From assembly GCF_055900595.2 (NCBI RefSeq), contig NZ_JBVWEU010000010.1: DNA of 4,996 nucleotides; one strand, given 5' to 3'. Source of the stretch: a plasmid. Under the pieces are notes generated by a model, which did no database searches, was not told where the DNA came from, and saw only the letters and a list, made by a program, of their open reading frames with translations. Position numbers and translations under genes: made by a program. Below, in pieces: positions 1-4,996 of the stretch. The first letter of the stretch is position 1. The number at the start of each line of letters is the position of its first letter.

Positions 1-139
1 ATGCACGAACCCCCGTTCAGTCCGACTGCTGCGCCTGTTCCGGTAACTTTCGACTTGAGTCCAACCCGGAAGGCACGACAAAACGCCACTGGCAGCAGCC
101 ACTGGTAAGGGGTGTACAAGAATTACTGGTGCAGAGTTC

Positions 140-169
140 TTGAAGTTACAGCCTAACTACAGCTAAACT
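140..169 (+). promoter_or_regulatory. RNA I promoter (-35 TTGAAG 140-145, -10 TAAACT 164-169)
   Basis: TTGAAG is identical to the pMB1 RNA I -35 and sits in the conserved agagttcttgaag context; 18-bp spacer to TAAACT. Hexamers read directly from sequence; function inferred. Confidence 0.55.
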
Positions 170-175
170 GAAAGG

Positions 176-280
176 ACAGATTTGGTGGCAGCGGTCTTGT
201 ACACCCTGTTACCACGGTTCAGAAGTTCCCCAACTTACTGATCCTTCGAAAAACCACCTCCCCAGGTGGTTTTTTCGTTT
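176..280 (+). ncRNA. RNA I antisense copy-number control RNA (ColE1-type)
   Basis: Starts at ACAGA (cf. pMB1 ACAGTATTTGG) about 7 nt downstream of a TAAACT -10 box; ends at an intrinsic terminator (stem accacct 253-259 / aggtggt 264-270, then a T-run). Length ~105 nt and position relative to the RNA II promoter match ColE1 RNA I. Stem-loop sequences differ from pMB1. Confidence 0.75.
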
Positions 281-290
281 ACAGAGCAAA

Positions 291-319
291 AGATTACATC
301 CCGCAGGTTAGGATCTCAA
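291..319 (-). promoter_or_regulatory. RNA II primer promoter (-35 TTGAGA = rc of 314-319, -10 TAATCT = rc of 291-296)
   Basis: Reverse complement of ggatctcaagaagatcc..agatta gives TTGAGA - 17 bp - TAATCT, the same hexamers and spacing as the pMB1 RNA II promoter (ggatctcaagaagatcc is conserved). Confidence 0.6.
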
Positions 320-495
320 GAAGATCCTTTTAATCGGAATTCGACAACTCCAGATAAGTCATGGTGAGCCAGCCAACCCCTTCGACTGAATATCGTTCCA
401 AAAAAAGGCAGTCAGCTGAAAGAAACTAACAGTAGAACAATAATCTCTAGTACCCTGAATCTAAGCTAACAACAAAACTAGATTAGGAGTTATAG

Positions 496-1554
496 ATGGC
501 GATCTATGCCGTATGGAATAACAAGGGTGGTGTAGGGAAAAGTTACCTTACTTTTCAGTTAGCCTCTGAATATGCCAGACAGAACCCTACTAAAAAGGTC
601 CTGGTGGTTGACCTGTGCCCACAAGCGAACTCGTCCTCTATGTTACTTGGTGGAATGATAAATGGCGAAAACACACTAAACCAGATTCATTCAGCAATAC
701 AGAGAAAGACAATATCTGGATATATTGAGGATAGGATCAGAAGTCCATATATTCCTACCAACACTGGTTCTAGCTATGTAATAAATGTATCTACACACAA
801 TAGTAAAGTTCCAAATAATCTATATCTTGTCACTGGCGATGAACAATTAGAACTCCAAGCATCAAGAGTTGTTGGGGCATCATTTCCAGGTCCCCATGAT
901 GCATGGCGTACTGTTCACCTCTGGATTAATGATTTAATCAGTGACATTTGCAACTCATGGAATAATGAAGATAGCTGCGTATTCATTGACTGCAACCCTA
1001 GCTTCTCTATTTATACAGAGTTAGCTTTAACCGCAGCAGAGCGCCTTTTAATTCCTTTCTCTGCCGATGGTTCATCAAAGAGAGCAGTTAAGGCTGTACT
1101 TTCTTTAGTTTATGGTGAGCGTCGCCATCAGAATGAACCACAATCAGATTTCTATCTTAATAGCAATCGTTATTCTATGTCGCTACCACAAATATATATG
1201 TATGTTGGAAATAGATTAACGCAAATGAACAATTCATCTGCCAGTGCATTTAAGACGGTAGTAACCGAAATTGGTGATGAAATTTGGAAAGTATGGCAAA
1301 CAAAACCAAGTCTGTTTTGTATTCACCCAAATGGGAGCTCAACGCCAAATAATAAAAGATCTTTCAGGAATATGTTTCAGTATGAAGTAAATGATGCAAA
1401 CACAGCATCTGTCGTATCTGGAGCCTTAGGTATTCCAATCGCGACATTAACTGCAGGAAATAAAACTGTTTCAGGAAAAATAATAAAGGTTAATCAGACG
1501 CAGCTAGATAAACAAGTCCCCAACATTGTAGCTCTCGCTGGTATGATCGAATAA
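496..1554 (+). CDS. ParA/MinD/Soj-superfamily P-loop ATPase, 352 aa, with ~90-aa C-terminal extension of unknown function
   Basis: ATG preceded by AGGAG (484-488, 7-nt spacer). Deviant Walker A KGGVGKS at residues 10-16 (nt 523-543); ParA-type VLVVDLCPQANSS segment; Walker B-like CVFID (nt 976-990) followed by NPSFSIYTELALTAAERLLIPFSAD. Long uninterrupted ORF ending at a strong intrinsic terminator. AT-rich compared with the backbone. No symbol assigned because the specific family is not recognised. Confidence 0.85.
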   Translation: MAIYAVWNNKGGVGKSYLTFQLASEYARQNPTKKVLVVDLCPQANSSSMLLGGMINGENTLNQIHSAIQRKTISGYIEDRIRSPYIPTNTGSSYVINVSTHNSKVPNNLYLVTGDEQLELQASRVVGASFPGPHDAWRTVHLWINDLISDICNSWNNEDSCVFIDCNPSFSIYTELALTAAERLLIPFSADGSSKRAVKAVLSLVYGERRHQNEPQSDFYLNSNRYSMSLPQIYMYVGNRLTQMNNSSASAFKTVVTEIGDEIWKVWQTKPSLFCIHPNGSSTPNNKRSFRNMFQYEVNDANTASVVSGALGIPIATLTAGNKTVSGKIIKVNQTQLDKQVPNIVALAGMIE

Positions 1555-1556
1555 AA

Positions 1557-1590
1557 TAGCAAGGCCCTTAAAAGGGCCTTTTTTTATTTG
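1557..1590. terminator. Bidirectional intrinsic terminator between convergent genes
   Basis: Perfect 7-bp GC-rich stem aaggccc (1561-1567) / gggcctt (1574-1580) with 6-nt loop, followed on the plus strand by a T-run (1581-1585 and beyond) and flanked on the minus strand by a weaker U-rich stretch. Lies 3 nt after the ParA-like stop and just after the stop of the 1584-1841 minus-strand ORF. Confidence 0.7.
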
Positions 1591-1841
1591 TTTTTCTTTA
1601 CTGCTTGCAGCGCCCTGCCAGCACTAGAGGCCAACTCTTTGATTACATTATCTTTACTTTCAACAACCTCAGTAAGCAACTCGTTTTCGTTTTCCAGTTT
1701 ATTCAAAGCGTTCTGAGTATCTTCAATAGCATCATCATACCCTTCGGCATAGCCATCCATCCAACCAAGAGTATACGTTTGGTCCAAAAGATCAGCTTGC
1801 TTATCCTGCAGATCTTTATTCTGATTATTGTTAGAGCCCAT
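1584..1841 (-). CDS. Small acidic hypothetical protein, 85 aa (D/E/N/Q-rich, probably helical)
   Basis: ATG at 1841 preceded on the minus strand by TGAGGAAAAAAC (GAGG about 8 nt upstream); ends at the shared terminator. The plus-strand antisense ORF (1605-1901) starts with TTG, lacks an SD and is hydrophobic, so the minus-strand reading is preferred. No recognisable family. Confidence 0.6.
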   Translation of the reverse strand: MGSNNNQNKDLQDKQADLLDQTYTLGWMDGYAEGYDDAIEDTQNALNKLENENELLTEVVESKDNVIKELASSAGRALQAVKKNK

Positions 1842-2016
1842 GTTTTTTCCTCATTTGTTGGCGCATCTGAGTTTTCAAACCAGGAGGAATTCCATTTCTA
1901 AGTTTCTCACTTAGTCTGACTGGTGGTGTGTTTCCTGAGACTGGATTACAGTCAGCATCCACCCCGACATCTTTCTTTTTATAGTCGCCAATATTCCTAA
2001 CGTTATCTGTAGTCAT
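1831..2016 (-). CDS. Possible small basic protein, 61 aa, overlapping the start of the 85-aa ORF by 11 nt
   Basis: ATG at 2016 downstream of the AT-rich divergent promoter region; its last codons contain the SD of the next ORF (translational-coupling geometry). No convincing SD of its own and no recognisable motif; may be only a 5' leader. Confidence 0.3.
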   Translation of the reverse strand: MTTDNVRNIGDYKKKDVGVDADCNPVSGNTPPVRLSEKLRNGIPPGLKTQMRQQMRKKHGL

Positions 2017-2179
2017 AGAAAACCACGCCCATTGCTGTGAATAACCGAACTATAAACCAGAAAAAAAACGTACGGCTTATCATAACACTTGACACAAAAA
2101 AACACCGCTACTCTCCAAGCAAAAAACATAAAATTGGAAAAACAAAATCACAAGCACATGATAACAATAGATATTAATA

Positions 2180-2207
2180 TTTACTTACATTTAGTGAGTT
2201 TTATAAT
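2180..2207 (+). promoter_or_regulatory. Candidate sigma70 promoter for the 143-aa ORF (-35 TTTACT 2180-2185, -10 TATAAT 2202-2207)
   Basis: Exact TATAAT hexamer with a 16-bp spacer to a TTTACT -35-like hexamer, ~50 nt upstream of the ATG at 2259, inside a 240-bp AT-rich divergent intergenic region. Prediction by eye only. Confidence 0.35.
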
Positions 2208-2258
2208 TAGAAAAACAATGTAATTTAATAATCACAAACATTACCTAAGGACGAACTG

Positions 2259-2690
2259 ATGAAAATACCCGCGCATTTGAAGCATAAACCAATTATTCAA
2301 GTCGAAAATTACGACCGCATTGACGGCCCACATGCCGATGACACTGATGCTATGGGGCTATCTGTAGGTATTGCTCAATGGAACACTCCTGGATGGACTG
2401 AGCTTTCGGCAAAGGTTTGGCGAAACACAGGAGAAAAATGGTCAAGACAATCAGAAGAGCTGCCTCTTCACCGGGTAATCGACCTTGCAACTCTGATCTG
2501 TATCACCATGGACTACAGTAAAAATGGGCGACTTTCATCCAGTGATGATTTTCCCGTGACTCGCTCAACTGATAACCCTGAGCTAGCACATCACACTGAG
2601 TTTATGAAAAAAGAGTTAAAACAAAATAAAAGCAATCTTGATGTAAGCCTCAAACGCCTCTCGACTGAATTGAAGAGACTTGGCTATTAA
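2259..2690 (+). CDS. Hypothetical protein, 143 aa, unknown function
   Basis: ATG preceded by TAAGGA (2246-2251, 7-nt spacer); candidate promoter upstream; ORF ends 38 nt before the first Xer-like site. No recognisable catalytic motif; C-terminus is K/E/L-rich. Confidence 0.65.
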   Translation: MKIPAHLKHKPIIQVENYDRIDGPHADDTDAMGLSVGIAQWNTPGWTELSAKVWRNTGEKWSRQSEELPLHRVIDLATLICITMDYSKNGRLSSSDDFPVTRSTDNPELAHHTEFMKKELKQNKSNLDVSLKRLSTELKRLGY

Positions 2691-2727
2691 AACTAGCTTT
2701 AGAAATGTCTACCTACTTCACAGACGA

Positions 2728-2755
2728 ATTTACCATAACATCCGTTTTTCGAACC
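2728..2755 (-). other. XerC/XerD-type site-specific recombination site (cer/dif-like, 6-bp central region), site 1
   Basis: Minus-strand reading GGTTCGAAAAA-CGGATG-TTATGGTAAAT (11-6-11). The XerD arm is identical to the cer XerD arm TTATGGTAAAT; the XerC arm matches consensus GGTGCGnAnAA at about 7 of 11 positions. Shares an identical 20-bp core (aatttaccataacatccgtt, 2727-2746) with site 2. Confidence 0.6.
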
Positions 2756-2760
2756 ATAAT

Positions 2761-2778
2761 GGCAGGCTATAGCCTGCC
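2761..2778. repeat. Perfect 18-bp palindrome ggcaggctatagcctgcc
   Basis: The sequence equals its own reverse complement; lies between Xer-like site 1 and the stop codon (2784) of the 134-aa minus-strand ORF. No strong T-run, so a terminator role is uncertain; could be a protein-binding site. Confidence 0.5.
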
Positions 2779-2783
2779 GTAAT

Positions 2784-3188
2784 TCACCGGAAAAAATCAT
2801 CCACAGAGTCGCTCCACTCATGCCCGGAAAGAGACCACACCTTGTTTATAGGGGGAGGATAACCACTCCTGCAGTACCCGTTTTTTCCCACGAAATCGAA
2901 TGCCCCGTGCGGGTATCCATTGATCAGGAGTACGCACTTCTGACTGTCTTCTGACCAGCCAATTTTAACATCAGAAGGAATGTGACCGTCTGAAACGTCT
3001 TCGGCATTGTAGATGTGTACTGCGTCCATAATCGGGTTTCCCTCGACGGACTCATCGAGCGCATAGAAATACCCGGTCCGGCCATCGTCTTCGAACACGG
3101 CGGCCAGCATGCCCTCAGGAGCGAGGCTCTTTATAACCTGTTCCTCCCCGACAACGAGCTGGGCCTGTATCGTCACTAAAATGGTCAT
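2784..3188 (-). CDS. Hypothetical protein, 134 aa, GC-rich, cargo of the Xer-bounded cassette
   Basis: ATG at 3188 with AAGGAG about 10 nt upstream on the minus strand; the ORF fills almost all of the interval between the two Xer-like sites. No motif recognised. The overlapping 70-aa minus-strand ORF (3115-3327) is judged spurious. Confidence 0.6.
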   Translation of the reverse strand: MTILVTIQAQLVVGEEQVIKSLAPEGMLAAVFEDDGRTGYFYALDESVEGNPIMDAVHIYNAEDVSDGHIPSDVKIGWSEDSQKCVLLINGYPHGAFDFVGKNGYCRSGYPPPINKVWSLSGHEWSDSVDDFFR

Positions 3189-3245
3189 CAGGTCTGTTCT
3201 CCTTTCCTTGGTTGCTTCGGCAGCCAGCTTTCAGACAAGCGGATA

Positions 3246-3273
3246 ATTTACCATAACATCCGTTATCAGCATC
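3246..3273 (-). other. XerC/XerD-type site-specific recombination site (cer/dif-like), site 2; candidate plasmid multimer-resolution site
   Basis: Minus-strand reading GATGCTGATAA-CGGATG-TTATGGTAAAT; central region and XerD arm identical to site 1, XerC arm about 8 of 11 to consensus. About 300 bp of GC-rich sequence with no credible ORF lies on its XerC side (3274-3580), where cer-type accessory sequences would be expected. Confidence 0.6.
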
Positions 3274-3594
3274 GTCAGAAACGCGCTGAGGGCGTTTCTG
3301 ACGGGAAACCGGTAAAACAGGCAACAAACCACCCGAAAACCCGCCAGAAACGCGCAGGCTCTGTTTTTATGGCATGCATGAGTATGCACGCAAGTGCATA
3401 GCGCGAATATTCACGCCATTCAGACAGGGTAAGTCCTGTTTCCGGCGTTCTTCCCATCCGAAAACGGTGAACGGGGACGCAATTTATTGCGTGGCCGTGA
3501 AGCGTTGCCGGCGCAGCCGGAAAACCGGTTTTCAGCACGTTCAGGAATCGGGTTCGTCGACGGCCGGCAATCACGTTATGGCAAGTCGCCGGAC

Positions 3595-3784
3595 GACTCA
3601 CCACACGATTCACCGGCGACTCTGCACTAGAGTCGTACCTAGAGTCGCCGCGACTAAAAAACAACCAAACGGGGAGTCGGGTCTAGAGTCGGGTCGTTAT
3701 TAACTCATTGTTTTTATAGCCCTGAGTCGTTACCGACTCTATGACGACTCGCCGGGGACTCTATGACGAGTCGTCATAGAGTCG
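3595..3784. repeat. Array of 12 GAGTC/GACTC motifs (11 as the hexamer GAGTCG/CGACTC), including two pairs of tandem 12-bp repeats and nested inverted repeats
   Basis: Counted directly: GAGTC at 3630, 3642, 3674, 3686, 3724, 3768, 3779; GACTC at 3595, 3618, 3735, 3746, 3757. Tandem ctagagtcg at 3627 and 3639; tandem gagtcgggtc at 3674 and 3686; 13-bp gactctatgacga at 3735 and 3757 (direct) and 3771 (inverted). Chance expectation for a 5-mer on both strands in ~190 bp is under 1. Confidence 0.7.
3757..3783. repeat. 27-bp perfect palindrome gactctatgacgagtcgtcatagagtc (13-bp arms around a central G)
   Basis: Every position i pairs with position 28-i; sits at the end of the GAGTCG array, immediately before an AT-rich stretch (3786-3860). 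Confidence 0.75.
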
Positions 3785-3982
3785 GATCTATATAAATAAA
3801 ATTTAAAAAACGAAATCTCAGGAAAGTAAACTACTGATATTAAATACAAATCTGCAAAATTTTAATTTTGCGTGGGGTGTGGGTATTTTTAGTGGTGAGG
3901 AGCGTTCAGAGATCTGACTATTTTTGGGAAGGTTCAGGAACTCCCCGGGATGGCCGGAGAGGAAAACTGAAGCATGACAGGG

Positions 3983-4384
3983 TCAGGATTTTTTCCAGAA
4001 TTTCCACCATGGCGCCGGGGATTCAGTTAATTTTGCCTGGTGATTTTCAAGAAGGAGCATGGCCTGTTTCAGGCTGTCAATGTGCGAATCTTTGGACAAA
4101 AGTAAAGTGTTCAGGTGTTCAATCTCCTGTTTCAGATGACGAATCACCTGTTCACACTGGTCAACAGAGGCTGTATCGCGCTGTTCAGAGACCTGTCCAG
4201 AATGGTGTTCACCCTTCAGTTGTTCAAAGGGACCAAAGACACGTAAAAGCTCTGAAGTATCTACCATTTTTGCATTGCGCTCACCGCTACAGGTGGACAG
4301 GTCACCTGCTTTAATTAACCTGTGCAGTGTTGTTCTACTCTTACCCGTCAGTCGGGCTGCCTCACTAATAGACACTCTGGCCAT
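3983..4384 (-). CDS. HTH DNA-binding protein (excisionase/MerR-like HTH_17-type N-terminus) with C-terminal coiled-coil-like region, 133 aa
   Basis: N-terminus SISEAARLTGKSRTTLHRLIKAGDLS fits the excisionase-family HTH pattern (EAAxLxGxSxxTxxRLIxxGxL); the C-terminal half is heptad-like and Q/E/L-rich. Start ATG overlaps the rop stop (TGATG at 4382-4386), implying co-transcription and translational coupling. Its antisense 148-aa ORF is Arg-rich and judged spurious. Confidence 0.7.
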   Translation of the reverse strand: MARVSISEAARLTGKSRTTLHRLIKAGDLSTCSGERNAKMVDTSELLRVFGPFEQLKGEHHSGQVSEQRDTASVDQCEQVIRHLKQEIEHLNTLLLSKDSHIDSLKQAMLLLENHQAKLTESPAPWWKFWKKS

Positions 4385-4575
4385 CAGTTACCATCCTGTA
4401 ATGCATCCAGTCTCGAGGACAGTGTACGGAAAAGATGCTCCGCATCATCGTGGAGTTTCTCACAAAGGTCGGCCTCGACATCAAGATCAAGCTCGTTAAG
4501 CTTCTCCAGCAGGAGCAGAGATTGATGCTGGATGAATTTAGCCATGTTCAGCGCTGTTTTCTGTTGTTTCGTCAT
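4384..4575 (-). CDS. rop: Rop/Rom RNA I-RNA II interaction modulator, 63 aa
   Basis: Translation MTKQQKTALNMAKFIQHQSLLLLEKLNELDLDVEADLCEKLHDDAEHLFRTL... closely matches ColE1/pMB1 Rop (MTKQEKTALNMARFIRSQTLTLLEKLNELDADEQADICESLHD..., recalled from memory), with identical length of 63 aa; located just downstream of the origin in replication direction. Confidence 0.9.
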   Translation of the reverse strand: MTKQQKTALNMAKFIQHQSLLLLEKLNELDLDVEADLCEKLHDDAEHLFRTLSSRLDALQDGN

Positions 4576-4599
4576 AAGAGGCCTCAGAGCGTCAGTGCT

Positions 4600-4996
4600 C
4601 AGTGTAGGGATGTTCTCTCTTCCGCTTCCTCGCTCACTGACTCGCTACGCTCGGTCGTTCGGCTGCGGCGAGCGGCAGGAGCATACGTTATGAAAGCTCG
4701 AGAAAACCGAGCGATCATGTAATTAAGCAAAGGGCAACGAAAGGCCGCGCCGCTGGCGTTTTTCCATAGGCTCCGCCCCCCTGACGAGCATCACAAAAAT
4801 TGACGCTCAAGTCAGAGGTGGCGAAACCCGACAGGACTATAAAGATACCAGGCGTTTCCCCCTGGAAGCTCCCTCGTGCGCTCTCCTGTTCCGACCCTGC
4901 CGTTTACCGGTGTCATTCCGCTGTTATGGCCGCGTTTGTCTCATTCCACGCCTGACACTCAGTTCCGGGTAGGCAGTTCGCTCCAAGCTGGACTGT
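4600..4996. other. ColE1-type origin of replication region (RNA II 3' domain, primer RNA-DNA transition, conserved origin-proximal hairpin region); continues at 1-330
   Basis: Near-identity by eye to pMB1 over cttccgcttcctcgctcactgactcgct.cgctcggtcgttcggctgcggcgagcgg and ggccgcg..gctggcgtttttccataggctccgcccccctgacgagcatcacaaaaat.gacgctcaagtcagaggtggcgaaacccgacaggactataaagataccaggcgtttccccctggaagctccctcgtgcgctctcctgttccgaccctgcc. The RNA-DNA switch is expected near 4735-4745 (inference, not mapped). Confidence 0.85.
4738..4996 (-). ncRNA. RNA II replication primer precursor, 3' portion up to the origin
   Basis: Continuation of the minus-strand RNA II from position 1 across the circular junction; the 3' boundary is approximate and placed by analogy with pMB1, where the primer ends near the ggccgcg..gctggcgttttt motif. 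Confidence 0.65.

What the first reader, a model, noticed from the sequence alone, without database searches (positions are those of the whole stretch)
1..4996. The window is a complete ~5-kb ColE1-type replicon, circularly permuted so that the ori is split across both ends
The final 16 bases and the first 20 bases together reconstitute the contiguous pMB1 ori sequence ctccaagctgg(g/a)ctgt(gt/at)gcacgaacccc with only two substitutions. RNA II therefore starts near position 284 on the minus strand, runs off the left edge and re-enters at 4996. Every other feature must be read as sitting on a 4,996-bp circle with no Rep protein, no relaxase and no selectable marker, i.e. a cryptic host-Pol I-dependent plasmid.
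Basis: partly seen in the sequence, partly recalled or inferred. Interest (0 to 1): 0.5.

Follow-up and report, generated by a model that had tools for sequence, protein, structure and literature searches.

The report
Known small ColE1-type plasmid, complete
The window is one full turn of an already catalogued 5-kb ColE1-type plasmid of Klebsiella and related gut bacteria, so the find is ordinary, though the plasmid also carries a borrowed F-type transfer origin that standard typing tools miss.

Summary
Joining window end to window start gives an uninterrupted ColE1 origin region. It aligns with authentic ColE1 in one piece across the junction (E 3e-134). The junction is internal in independent circular database records.

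The window is a unit-length copy, 99.2-99.4% identical, of about 25 circular plasmids of 4986-4994 bp (most 4991 bp). These come from Klebsiella, E. coli and Enterobacter and are typed ColRNAI_rep_cluster_1987.

The replicon parts are all present:
- RNA I (Rfam, 101.8 bits).
- RNA II, starting near 282 on the minus strand.
- The RNA-to-DNA switch near 4759-4763.
- Rop.
- A cer-type Xer site.

No Rep initiator, relaxase or resistance gene was found. The break point is a coordinate convention: another circular record starts and ends at the same bases.

"Cryptic" is too bare a description. Positions 3595-3895 are an orphan F-type oriT, homologous to the traM-proximal oriT of pKpQIL-like plasmids. 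A natural recombinant switches partner within about 50 nt around its nic site. The DUF2251 gene is a 518-bp cassette flanked by Xer sites. A very conserved solitary ParA-fold ATPase of unknown role is also carried.

This is an already known kind and low in interest.

The parts
291..319 (-). RNA II promoter P2 (-35 TTGAGA at 319-314, -10 TAATCT at 296-291, 17-nt spacer)
   Evidence: Read from the sequence. The hexamers sit in the same places as in ColE1 in the alignment. Their assignment as promoter elements rests on established knowledge of ColE1.
1..282 (-). RNA II preprimer, 5' part (+1 near 282), running off the left edge
   Evidence: Contiguous alignment to ColE1 and pMB1. It is antisense to the Rfam RNA I hit.
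4759..4996 (-). RNA II preprimer, 3' part, re-entering at 4996. The RNA-to-DNA switch (ori proper) falls at the T-run 4759-4763 (an A-run on the RNA II strand). Total RNA II length is about 515-520 nt.
   Evidence: Alignment to ColE1. The position of the switch is taken from established knowledge of ColE1/pMB1 and mapped by homology.
140..169 (+). RNA I promoter P1 (-35 TTGAAG at 140-145, -10 TAAACT at 164-169)
   Evidence: Sequence and homology to ColE1.
176..281 (+). RNA I antisense copy-number regulator
   Evidence: Rfam RF00106 at 177-278, 101.8 bits, E 3.4e-19. Three stem-loops, -39.8 kcal/mol, z -5.3.
4618..4675 (.). Conserved block downstream of ori, homologous to the ColE1/pBR322 primosome-assembly (n') region
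   Evidence: 97% identical to ColE1 1367-1309. The functional label comes from general knowledge and was not tested.
4384..4575 (-). rop (rom), the RNA I-RNA II kissing-complex stabiliser
   Evidence: phmmer against PDB Rop chains gives 1rop E 1.6e-19 over residues 1-56. The sibling CDS is annotated as Rop family.
3983..4384 (-). 133-aa HTH protein, an Exc1-like homologue. Its start overlaps the rop stop codon.
   Evidence: Pfam HTH_17, 4e-06. 30% identical to ColE1 'entry exclusion protein 1', E 9e-11. NCBIfam NF038291 scores 63 bits, below its cut-off of 85. In the rows listed from 2002 plasmid records it usually lies next to rop.
3851..3895 (+). F-type oriT nic region. The inferred nic lies between 3880 and 3881 (..TTTTGCGTGGGGTGT|GGGTA..).
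   Evidence: Identical to pKpQIL over the 33 aligned nt 5' of nic and close to plasmid F. The nic position is transferred from plasmid F by knowledge and was not measured.
3786..3850 (.). AT-rich spacer of the oriT, occupying the position of the IHF/TraY sites in F-like oriTs
   Evidence: Alignment to the pKpQIL oriT and composition. The binding sites themselves were not tested.
3595..3783 (.). Array of 13 GANTC motifs (GACTC/GAGTC), six of them at exact 11-bp spacing (3724-3779). These are TraM-type (sbm-like) binding sites of the oriT.
   Evidence: 13 of the window's 24 GANTC motifs fall in 190 bp, and they align with the pKpQIL array between traM and the SLT gene. pED208 TraM binds GANTC (PMC3159463).
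3246..3460 (-). cer-type multimer-resolution site. XerD arm 3246-3256, 6-bp centre 3257-3262, XerC arm 3263-3273. Accessory sequences follow, with an ArgR-box-like motif at 3373-3390.
   Evidence: Aligns with the ColE1 cer core and proximal accessory DNA. The ArgR-like box is at the same offset (127) as in ColE1.
2728..3245 (.). 518-bp cassette flanked by Xer sites. It has a second Xer site (XerD arm 2728-2738, XerC arm 2745-2755) and carries the DUF2251 gene (2784-3188, minus strand).
   Evidence: Exact 20-nt direct repeat 518 bp apart. The 4473-bp siblings lack exactly this unit. The same cassette lies between two Xer sites in an unrelated Leclercia plasmid. Pfam DUF2251, 8.8e-35.
2259..2690 (+). 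DUF6530 gene (cargo)
   Evidence: Pfam PF20140, 3e-44. 4573 homologues, some in chromosomal islands.
1584..2016 (-). Two overlapping small ORFs: 61 aa (1831-2016) and 85 aa coiled-coil (1584-1841)
   Evidence: ORF list. Both are annotated and conserved in the E. coli plasmid NZ_CP122863.1, at 59% and 80% amino-acid identity. No family match.
1561..1580 (.). Bidirectional terminator-like hairpin between the convergent ParA-like and 85-aa genes
   Evidence: Consensus scan, 8-bp stem with T-runs on both strands.
496..1554 (+). 352-aa ParA/MinD-fold ATPase (cargo, partner unknown)
   Evidence: Pfam AAA_31, 1.2e-17. AlphaFold2 pLDDT 91. Foldseek top hits are Soj, ParA and McdA, with TM about 0.8 normalised by target length. 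Under strong purifying selection.

Best explanation
The window is one complete, unit-length copy of a known small ColE1-family plasmid (PLSDB/MOB-suite cluster ColRNAI_rep_cluster_1987). It is written with its zero point inside the RNA II gene.

Replication (inferred from homology to ColE1):
- RNA II is transcribed from P2, starting near 282 on the minus strand.
- It runs through the coordinate junction.
- It forms a persistent hybrid at the origin near 4759-4763.
- RNase H cuts it and host DNA polymerase I extends it.
- No plasmid initiator protein is needed.

Copy number is set by the antisense RNA I (176-281, + strand) and by Rop. Multimers are resolved by host XerCD at a cer-type site, with ArgR/PepA-type accessory DNA.

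The plasmid has no relaxase, but it carries an orphan F-type oriT made of a nic site and a TraM-type GANTC array. It is therefore most likely moved in trans by co-resident F-like (IncFII(K), pKpQIL-type) conjugative plasmids.

The rest is AT-rich cargo:
- a ParA-fold ATPase with two small ORFs;
- a DUF6530 gene;
- a DUF2251 gene, which sits in a 518-bp cassette inserted by Xer recombination.

What is shown here: identity, completeness, gene content, the homologies, and the recombinant joints.

What is inferred: Pol I dependence, Xer/ArgR function, and mobilisation.
For: Unit-length circle:
- About 25 circular records of 4986-4994 bp match at 99.1-99.4% over 100% of the window.
- Coverage is reciprocal and full, with the junction internal.
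- NZ_OY856408.1 starts and ends at the same bases as the window.

ColE1 replicon:
- RNA I matches Rfam at 101.8 bits.
- A single HSP to ColE1 crosses the junction, E 3e-134.
- Rop matches 1ROP at 1.6e-19.
- The cer core and accessory DNA are homologous to ColE1, with an ArgR-like box at the same offset.
- Siblings are typed ColRNAI and non-mobilizable.

No Rep, relaxase or resistance gene.

oriT:
- 3394 of the 5000 best matches to window 3580-3960 are conjugative plasmids.
- In pKpQIL-531 the match lies between traM and the SLT gene.
- The nic core is identical and the 11-bp-phased GANTC arrays align.
- pRHBSTW-00138_3 is 95% identical to the window for 600 nt on one side of nic. It is 100% identical to pKpQIL for 1000 nt on the other side.
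- Precedent: the mob-less ColE1-like pSe-Kan, with an F-type oriT, is mobilised by F at 0.69 (PMC9282650).

Cassette.
Against: - There is no read-level evidence of circularity for this particular molecule.
- This exact sequence is not in PLSDB; the best match is 99.4%.
- 36 of the 37 differences from a sibling cluster in 4619-4901, inside the origin region. This could be real gene conversion or an assembly chimera of co-resident ColE1 plasmids.
- The C-run at 10-14 is one base short of every relative.
- Pol I dependence, Xer resolution and oriT function are all untested.
- The bases just 3' of nic differ from the helper plasmids: GGGTATTTTTAGTGG against GGTGATTTTGTGG.
- pKPHS5 carries the same nic variant, although with a different TraM-site array. 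It was not seen to transfer with the IncFII helper pKPHS2 in one study (PMC10691111).
- MOB-suite calls the family non-mobilizable.
Confidence: 0.93

Rival explanations
1. The 4996 bases are not a free monomer. They are one repeat unit cut out of a plasmid multimer, or out of a larger cointegrate in which this ColE1 replicon is embedded.
For: The same replicon does occur embedded in larger molecules: a 23-kb plasmid with Tn5403 copies, and IS26-bounded fragments in IncFII plasmids of 117 kb and 126 kb.
Against: The ends join without loss or duplication to give exactly the sibling unit length. The whole sibling circle is covered, with no transposon or IS sequence. The embedded copies are truncated or lack the DUF2251 cassette. 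An independent circular record has identical end points.
Confidence: 0.04
2. The plasmid has a second, protein-dependent replicon. In this reading the HTH protein (weakly similar to NCBIfam 'plasmid replication DNA-binding protein' NF038291) binds the repeated GAGTC/GACTC hexamers as iterons next to an AT-rich tract.
For: NF038291 hit of 63 bits, E 4e-17. There are 13 repeated hexamers and an adjacent AT-rich stretch.
Against: The score is below the family cut-off of 85. The protein is a homologue of ColE1 Exc1. The repeat array and AT-rich tract are homologous, in order and phase, to the oriT between traM and the SLT gene of pKpQIL, and they end in an F-type nic site. No initiator-family protein is present.
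Confidence: 0.03
3. The origin-proximal patch (4612-4905), and perhaps the short C-run at 10-14, are assembly or sequencing artefacts produced by a co-resident ColE1-type plasmid. On this reading the true molecule is identical to the 4991-bp siblings.
For: 36 of 37 differences fall in 283 bp. Sub-segments 4612-4675 and 4757-4905 are 97-98% identical to ColE1 but only about 90% identical to the sibling, while the flanks are 100% sibling. No PLSDB record carries the whole patch. Homopolymer length errors are common.
Against: The middle of the patch (4676-4756) is of sibling type, not ColE1 type. A simple switch of path to another plasmid is therefore not enough. Natural gene conversion between co-resident ColE1 origins would give the same picture. 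This rival does not affect the identification.
Confidence: 0.15

Closest known systems
4991-bp ColRNAI plasmids such as pS471P_P6 (NZ_CP079178.1), NZ_CP035127.1 and NZ_CP093918.1, and the 4473-bp form (NZ_CP055190.1, NZ_OY856408.1)
   Same: Same gene order and content and the same unit length. 99.2-99.4% identity over the whole circle, with identical cargo (100% over 340-2726).
   Different: A 283-bp patch in the origin region carries 36 differences, including a 6-bp indel. There is one fewer C at 10-14. The 4473-bp form lacks the 518-bp DUF2251 cassette.
ColE1 (NC_001371.1) and pMB1/pBR322
   Same: RNA II/RNA I origin (74% over 786 columns), Rop, and a cer-type Xer site with an ArgR-like box at the same offset.
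   Different: No colicin, immunity or lysis genes. The Exc1-like gene sits directly after rop. The transfer origin is F-type. RNA II is about 35 nt shorter.
pSe-Kan and pKPN2 (ColE1-like, no mob genes, with an F-type oriT)
   Same: A ColE1-type replicon plus an orphan F-type oriT, used by a relaxase supplied in trans. pSe-Kan was mobilised by F tra genes at 0.69 (PMC9282650).
   Different: Their oriT is about 90% identical to that of plasmid F itself. Here only the nic core resembles F. The TraM-site array is of the GANTC (pED208/pKpQIL) type, and the closest conjugative relatives are Klebsiella IncFII(K) plasmids. Transfer of this plasmid has not been tested.
pKPHS5 (NC_016847.1) and the second replicon of pKP_FQ61_4
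   Same: The same rop - Exc1-like HTH - F-type nic - GANTC array backbone.
   Different: The HTH protein of this variant type is only about 41% identical. The TraM-site motifs are GATTC/GAATC. The pKP_FQ61_4 copy has what, from memory, is the R100-type nic allele GCGTAGTGTGT. pKPHS5 was not seen to transfer with pKPHS2.
Xer-bounded gene modules (Acinetobacter pdif modules; recombination at Xer sites in small qnrB19 plasmids, Tran et al. 2012, cited in PMC6764390)
   Same: A single gene bracketed by two directly repeated XerC/XerD sites. It is present or absent precisely at those sites and is found in unrelated backbones.
   Different: The cargo is a DUF2251 gene of unknown function, not a resistance gene. 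The host site is the plasmid's own cer-type resolution site.

Membership tests
ColE1-type (RNA II-primed, Pol I-dependent) replicon | Antisense RNA I with three stem-loops, complementary to the 5' end of the primer transcript | tested here: met
   Rfam RF00106, 101.8 bits against a gathering score of 47, full model 1-102. Fold shows three hairpins, z -5.3.
ColE1-type (RNA II-primed, Pol I-dependent) replicon | RNA II preprimer region and origin homologous to, and colinear with, ColE1/pMB1 | tested here: met
   Single HSP to NC_001371.1 from the P2 promoter to beyond the origin, 584/786 identical, E 3e-134, crossing the window junction.
ColE1-type (RNA II-primed, Pol I-dependent) replicon | No plasmid-encoded replication initiator | tested here: met
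   No Rep family reached threshold in NCBIfam, Pfam or PHROGs for any ORF. The only near-hit is NF038291 at 63 bits, below its cut-off of 85, on an Exc1-like HTH protein. The short 'replication initiation protein' ORF of relatives lies inside RNA II and is frameshifted here.
ColE1-type (RNA II-primed, Pol I-dependent) replicon | Replication depends on host RNase H and DNA polymerase I | not testable with these tools
   Inferred from sequence homology only. Needs polA and rnhA host tests.
ColE1-type (RNA II-primed, Pol I-dependent) replicon | Rop/Rom accessory regulator (optional; found in 59% of enterobacterial ColE1 plasmids according to PMC8683028) | tested here: met
   63-aa protein, E 1.6e-19 to 1ROP over residues 1-56.
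cer-type XerCD multimer-resolution site | 11-bp XerD and XerC arms around a 6-8-bp centre, with about 200 bp of accessory DNA and an ArgR box on the XerC side | tested here: met
   The XerD arm ATTTACCATAA is identical to that of ColE1 cer. The core and proximal accessory DNA align with ColE1 3938-3844. An ArgR-like box (12/18 to consensus) lies at offset 127, where ColE1 has its box (14/18). Recombination activity was not tested.
F-type (MOBF12) oriT carried without a relaxase (relaxase-in-trans, 'pOriT' plasmids) | nic-site sequence of F-like plasmids | tested here: met
   TTTTGCGTGGGGTGT|GG is identical to pKpQIL-531 and to the part of plasmid F compared. The bases from +3 onward differ.
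F-type (MOBF12) oriT carried without a relaxase (relaxase-in-trans, 'pOriT' plasmids) | Homology to the oriT of a conjugative plasmid in its native place, between traM and the leading-region SLT gene | tested here: met
   Window 3709-3902 matches pKpQIL-531 between traM and the SLT gene at 72%. 3394 of the 5000 best-matching records are conjugative.
F-type (MOBF12) oriT carried without a relaxase (relaxase-in-trans, 'pOriT' plasmids) | Phased binding sites for the relaxosome protein TraM | tested here: inconclusive
   13 GANTC motifs in 190 bp, six of them at 11-bp spacing, aligned with the pKpQIL array. GANTC is the pED208 TraM motif (PMC3159463). Binding by a Klebsiella TraM was not tested.
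F-type (MOBF12) oriT carried without a relaxase (relaxase-in-trans, 'pOriT' plasmids) | Absence of a relaxase gene on the plasmid | tested here: met
   No relaxase family hit. MOB-suite reports no relaxase for the siblings.
F-type (MOBF12) oriT carried without a relaxase (relaxase-in-trans, 'pOriT' plasmids) | Actual mobilisation by a helper plasmid | not testable with these tools
   Indirect support: a natural recombinant switches from this lineage to pKpQIL within the roughly 50-nt identical stretch that contains nic. Indirect doubt: pKPHS5 transfer was not detected (PMC10691111).
Type I (ParA/ParB/parS) plasmid partition system | Walker-type ParA ATPase fold | tested here: met
   KGGVGKS motif. 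Pfam AAA_31 and CbiA. AlphaFold2 pLDDT 91. Foldseek hits Soj, ParA and McdA with TM about 0.8 by target length.
Type I (ParA/ParB/parS) plasmid partition system | Adjacent co-directional centromere-binding protein gene (ParB) and centromere repeats | tested here: not met
   No ParB-family gene is present. The neighbouring 85-aa and 61-aa ORFs are convergent and match no family. The homologues in the three chromosomal contexts examined stand alone. Scores against curated ParA models are far below cut-off: 52 bits against 180.

The most novel reading that the evidence does not exclude
The plasmid may not be cryptic. Its 352-aa ParA/MinD-fold ATPase could be a self-sufficient, horizontally mobile function that pays for the plasmid's upkeep. 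Candidates are a single-gene exclusion or defence factor against phages or competing plasmids, or a partner-less positioning ATPase for a high-copy plasmid.

The protein is 75-80% identical across Vibrio, Dickeya, Methylomonas, Thiomargarita and Electrothrix. It is 352 aa in nearly all of the listed homologues. It occurs as a lone gene in a Vibrio cholerae cassette array and beside the integrases of satellite-like islands.
Probability: 0.2. Interest if true: 0.6.

Novelty: already known. Interest (0 to 1): 0.15.

Why it matters
As a finding it matters little. It correctly recognises a complete ColE1-type plasmid that is already present many times in public databases.

Three side observations have some practical value:
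- A few hundred small Klebsiella plasmids that standard typing calls "non-mobilizable" carry this F-type oriT. A natural recombinant switches partner within about 50 nt around its nic site. Their contribution to gene flow alongside pKpQIL-type plasmids may therefore be underestimated.
- The cer site of this lineage collects single-gene cassettes by Xer recombination.
- Near-identical records labelled Enterococcus faecium probably reflect contamination or mislabelling.

Tried and rejected
A ColE1-type oriT was therefore dropped.
- Iteron/Rep hypothesis: I first read the GAGTC/GACTC array plus the HTH protein as a possible iteron-and-Rep module, prompted by the NF038291 hit. I rejected this once the array proved homologous to F-type oriT DNA and the protein proved to be an Exc1 homologue.
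- Defence systems: PADLOC gave only noise-level hits for all seven proteins. PHROGs gave only a generic ParA family.
- Donor of the origin patch: no PLSDB record carries it whole; the best is 87.7-91.2%.
- Literature: the review of small K. pneumoniae plasmids does not list a 4.99-kb or 4.47-kb plasmid.
- Small-ORF checks: the 51-aa ORF at 4800-4955 is not the ORF that RefSeq labels 'replication initiation protein' in ColE1. That ORF begins at window base 1.
- High-identity copies of the GANTC array in a large conjugative plasmid: the one such copy examined is an embedded ColE1 fragment, not a native oriT.
- Structure search on the ParA-like protein: it returned only the generic ParA/Soj/MinD fold.

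Full report
**Observation.**
The window ends in ctccaagctggactgt and begins with atgcacgaacccccgttcag. I rotated the sequence (4301-4996 followed by 1-500) and compared it with authentic ColE1 (NC_001371.1, fetched). The result is a single alignment that runs from the region downstream of the origin, through the junction, to the RNA II promoter: 584 of 786 columns identical, E 3e-134. Immediately after it the C-run is five long, where ColE1, pMB1 and all siblings have six.

**Completeness and circularity.**
A megablast of the whole window against PLSDB finds about 25 circular plasmids of 4986-4994 bp, most of them 4991 bp. They come from Klebsiella pneumoniae, K. quasipneumoniae, K. oxytoca, E. 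coli and Enterobacter cloacae. All cover 100% of the window at 99.1-99.4% identity, each in two pieces, as expected for a different zero point. Against NZ_CP079178.1, window 1237-4996 equals record 1-3754 and window 1-1236 equals record 3755-4991. Every base of both molecules is therefore used, and the window junction is the internal step 3754|3755. MOB-suite types these records as ColRNAI_rep_cluster_1987, non-mobilizable, with no relaxase.

The zero point is not arbitrary. The window starts at the ATG of a short ORF (MHEPP...) that lies inside the RNA II gene. RefSeq labels this ORF 'replication initiation protein' in several relatives. An independent circular record, NZ_OY856408.1, begins and ends at exactly the same bases. 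I infer that a re-orientation step of an assembly pipeline set the start there. In the window that ORF is frameshifted by the short C-run. I could not examine reads, so the physical circularity of this particular molecule remains an inference.

**Replicon anatomy.**
- Rfam places RNA I at 177-278 on the + strand, at 101.8 bits against a gathering score of 47. It folds into the three classical hairpins, z -5.3.
- By colinearity with ColE1, the RNA II promoter is TTGAGA (319-314) and TAATCT (296-291).
- The transcript leaves the window at base 1, re-enters at 4996, and reaches the RNA-to-DNA switch at the T-run 4759-4763. That gives a primer of about 515-520 nt.
- The origin proper therefore lies about 235 nt inside the right end. 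The ends split the RNA II body.
- Downstream lie a block 97% identical to the ColE1 region known as the primosome-assembly site (4618-4675) and rop (4384-4575, minus strand; E 1.6e-19 to 1ROP).
- The position of the switch and the roles of RNase H and Pol I come from established knowledge of ColE1 and were not tested here.

**Absence claims.**
I scanned the seven plausible proteins against NCBIfam, PADLOC, PHROGs and Pfam. No replication initiator, relaxase or resistance family was found. The one suggestive hit is the 133-aa HTH protein (3983-4384, minus strand) against NF038291, 'plasmid replication DNA-binding protein'. It scores 63 bits, below the cut-off of 85. That protein is 30% identical (E 9e-11) to ColE1 'entry exclusion protein 1'. 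It occurs in 2002 plasmid records, and in most of the rows listed it lies directly next to rop. Its start overlaps the rop stop codon. Its function is unknown.

**An orphan F-type oriT.**
Downstream of the HTH gene lie an AT-rich tract and a dense array of GAGTC/GACTC motifs, which I first took for iterons. The tract ends in TTTTGCGTGGGGTGT|GGGTA (3866-3885), which resembles the F nic site. Several results identify this region as an F-type oriT.

- A sensitive BLAST of 3580-3960 returned at least 5000 records, 3394 of them conjugative and mostly large Klebsiella IncF plasmids.
- In pKpQIL-531 the match lies exactly between traM and the leading-region SLT gene, which is the oriT position. In plasmid F the same sequence precedes traM.
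- The alignment shows an identical nic core.
- Thirteen of the window's 24 GANTC motifs lie in 3595-3783. Six are at exact 11-bp spacing (3724-3779) and are in register with five such motifs in pKpQIL.
- GANTC is the motif bound by pED208 TraM (PMC3159463).

One database record gives a natural experiment. The 55-kb plasmid pRHBSTW-00138_3 is 95% identical to the window for 600 nt on the TraM-site side of nic. It is 100% identical to pKpQIL for 1000 nt on the leading side. The switch is confined to the roughly 50-nt stretch around nic that the two parents share. That is the footprint expected of relaxase-catalysed recombination between two oriTs. It suggests that an F(K)-type relaxase acts on the oriT of this ColE1 lineage.

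A direct precedent exists. The mob-less ColE1-like plasmid pSe-Kan carries an F-type oriT and is mobilised by F at 0.69, and pKPN2 has the same oriT (PMC9282650). Plasmids with oriT only are now recognised as common (PMC10123127 abstract; bioRxiv 10.1101/2024.01.30.577996).

There is also evidence against function. The bases from +3 after nic differ from the helpers. pKPHS5 shares this nic variant but has a GATTC-type array, and it was not seen to transfer with the IncFII helper pKPHS2 (PMC10691111). I put mobilisation in trans at roughly 0.6.

**cer site and a Xer cassette.**
An exact 20-nt repeat, AATTTACCATAACATCCGTT, occurs at 2727-2746 and 3245-3264, 518 bp apart. ATTTACCATAA is identical to the corresponding arm of ColE1 cer, the XerD-binding arm. 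Window 3246-3340 aligns with the ColE1 cer core and proximal accessory DNA. An ArgR-box-like motif lies at offset 127, exactly where ColE1 has its ArgR box.

The 4473-bp siblings lack precisely the 518-bp unit and keep a single hybrid site. The same cassette, 97% identical, sits between two Xer sites 518 bp apart in an unrelated MOBP plasmid of Leclercia, with different flanks. In a further relative a GNAT acetyltransferase gene lies between two such arms. The DUF2251 gene (Pfam 8.8e-35) is therefore cargo of a Xer-mobilised cassette inserted in the plasmid's own resolution site. This is a known kind of event in small plasmids (Tran et al. 2012, as cited in PMC6764390).

**Cargo.**
Positions 340-2726 are AT-rich, with GC 0.32-0.42 against 0.50-0.57 in the backbone. 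This fits the variable region described for ColE1 plasmids (PMC5864857).

*The ParA-like protein.*
The 352-aa protein has a KGGVGKS Walker A motif and Pfam AAA_31. The AlphaFold2 model is confident (pLDDT 91), and its best PDB matches are Soj, ParA and McdA. It scores far below curated ParA cut-offs and has no ParB partner. It has thousands of homologues that are 75-80% identical and, in nearly all the listed cases, 352 aa long. They come from Vibrio, Methylomonas, Dickeya, Thiomargarita and Electrothrix. In the three contexts I examined it stands alone: in a V. cholerae cassette array, and next to integrases of satellite-like islands in Dickeya and Methylomonas.

*The three-gene block.*
On small plasmids the ParA-like gene travels with the convergent 85-aa and 61-aa ORFs. 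The block recurs at 84-86% nucleotide identity in MbeA-type 5-kb plasmids. There the ParA-like protein is 95.5% identical, and 125 of 149 nucleotide differences fall at third codon positions.

*DUF6530.*
Homologues of DUF6530 (Pfam 3e-44) sit in islands beside an AAA_15/AAA_21 ATPase, an EcoRII-type restriction-modification system and integrases.

None of these genes has a known function. A defence, exclusion or positioning role is speculation.

**The origin patch.**
Of 37 differing alignment columns between the window and NZ_CP079178.1, 36 lie in 4619-4901. They include a 6-bp indel next to the switch point. Segments 4612-4675 and 4757-4905 are 97-98% identical to ColE1 but about 90% identical to the sibling. 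The middle segment and both flanks are of sibling type. No PLSDB record has the whole patch. Gene conversion between co-resident ColE1 origins is the likeliest cause. An assembly chimera cannot be excluded without reads.

**Verdict.**
The object is an already catalogued small ColE1-family plasmid. The refinements are these:
- the origin proper is not at the junction;
- the junction is a coordinate convention;
- the plasmid is probably mobilisable in trans through an orphan F-type oriT;
- part of its cargo is a Xer cassette.

Interest is low. The only open questions are the functions of the cargo genes and whether the oriT works.

Noticed in passing
window 3595-3895: Orphan F-type oriT. The nic core TTTTGCGTGGGGTGT|GG is followed on its 5' side by 13 GANTC (TraM-type) motifs, homologous to the oriT between traM and the SLT gene of pKpQIL-like plasmids. 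MOB-suite nevertheless calls the plasmid family non-mobilizable.
   Followed up: yes
L005 (NZ_CP058133.1) around locus position 2801, against window 3880|3881: A 55-kb plasmid is 95% identical to the window for 600 nt on one side of nic and 100% identical to pKpQIL for 1000 nt on the other. This is a recombinant joint within the roughly 50-nt shared stretch that contains nic, as expected from relaxase-mediated oriT-oriT recombination.
   Followed up: yes
window 2727-3273: The DUF2251 gene lies in a 518-bp cassette bounded by two directly repeated Xer sites with identical XerD arm and centre and different XerC arms. The cassette is absent from the 4473-bp siblings and present between Xer sites in an unrelated Leclercia plasmid. 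A GNAT gene occupies the same kind of slot in L004.
   Followed up: yes
window 4612-4905: 36 of 37 differences from the nearest sibling cluster here. Two sub-segments are ColE1-like (97-98%) rather than sibling-like (about 90%). This is either a recombinant origin patch or an assembly chimera.
   Followed up: partly
window 1-150 and 10-14: The window starts at the ATG of a short ORF inside RNA II that RefSeq labels 'replication initiation protein' in relatives. NZ_OY856408.1 has identical end points. The C-run is 5 here and 6 everywhere else, which frameshifts that ORF.
   Followed up: yes
window 496-1554: A solitary 352-aa ParA/MinD-fold ATPase with very high conservation across distant bacteria (75-80% identity, nearly always 352 aa). 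It is found alone in a Vibrio cassette array and beside integrases. There is no ParB and no known defence family match.
   Followed up: partly
window 390-2054; L018 (NZ_CP122863.1) 1805-3323: The ParA-like gene and the convergent 85-aa and 61-aa ORFs form a block that recurs at 84-86% nucleotide identity on MbeA-type mobilisable 5-kb plasmids of E. coli, Enterobacter and Salmonella. The 61-aa ORF is not annotated in the closest siblings.
   Followed up: partly
window 2259-2690; L015-L017: DUF6530 homologues lie in chromosomal islands next to an AAA_15/AAA_21 ATPase, an EcoRII-type restriction-modification system and integrases. This hints at a defence-island association.
   Followed up: partly
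window 3983-4384: The HTH protein after rop is a distant homologue of ColE1 Exc1 (30% identity). It scores sub-threshold against an NCBIfam family named 'plasmid replication DNA-binding protein'. Its start codon overlaps the rop stop, and in every locus examined the gene lies about 100 bp from nic.
   Followed up: partly
L003 (NZ_CP091816.1) 600-1127; L020 (pKPHS5): Related ColE1 backbones carry other oriT 'alleles'. L003 has GCGTAGTGTGT, which from memory is the R100-type nic. Both L003 and pKPHS5 have GATTC/GAATC TraM-site motifs. This suggests that small plasmids track the specificity of different F-like helpers.
   Followed up: partly
PLSDB records NZ_CP059753.1, NZ_CP072739.1, NZ_CP072728.1; protein P0121: Near-identical copies of this enterobacterial ColE1 plasmid, or fragments of it, are deposited under Enterococcus faecium. 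A DUF6530 fragment is deposited under Mycobacterium tuberculosis. These are probably contamination or mislabelling.
   Followed up: no
window 1561-1580: A GC-rich hairpin flanked by T-runs on both strands lies between the convergent ParA-like and 85-aa genes. It looks like a bidirectional terminator.
   Followed up: no
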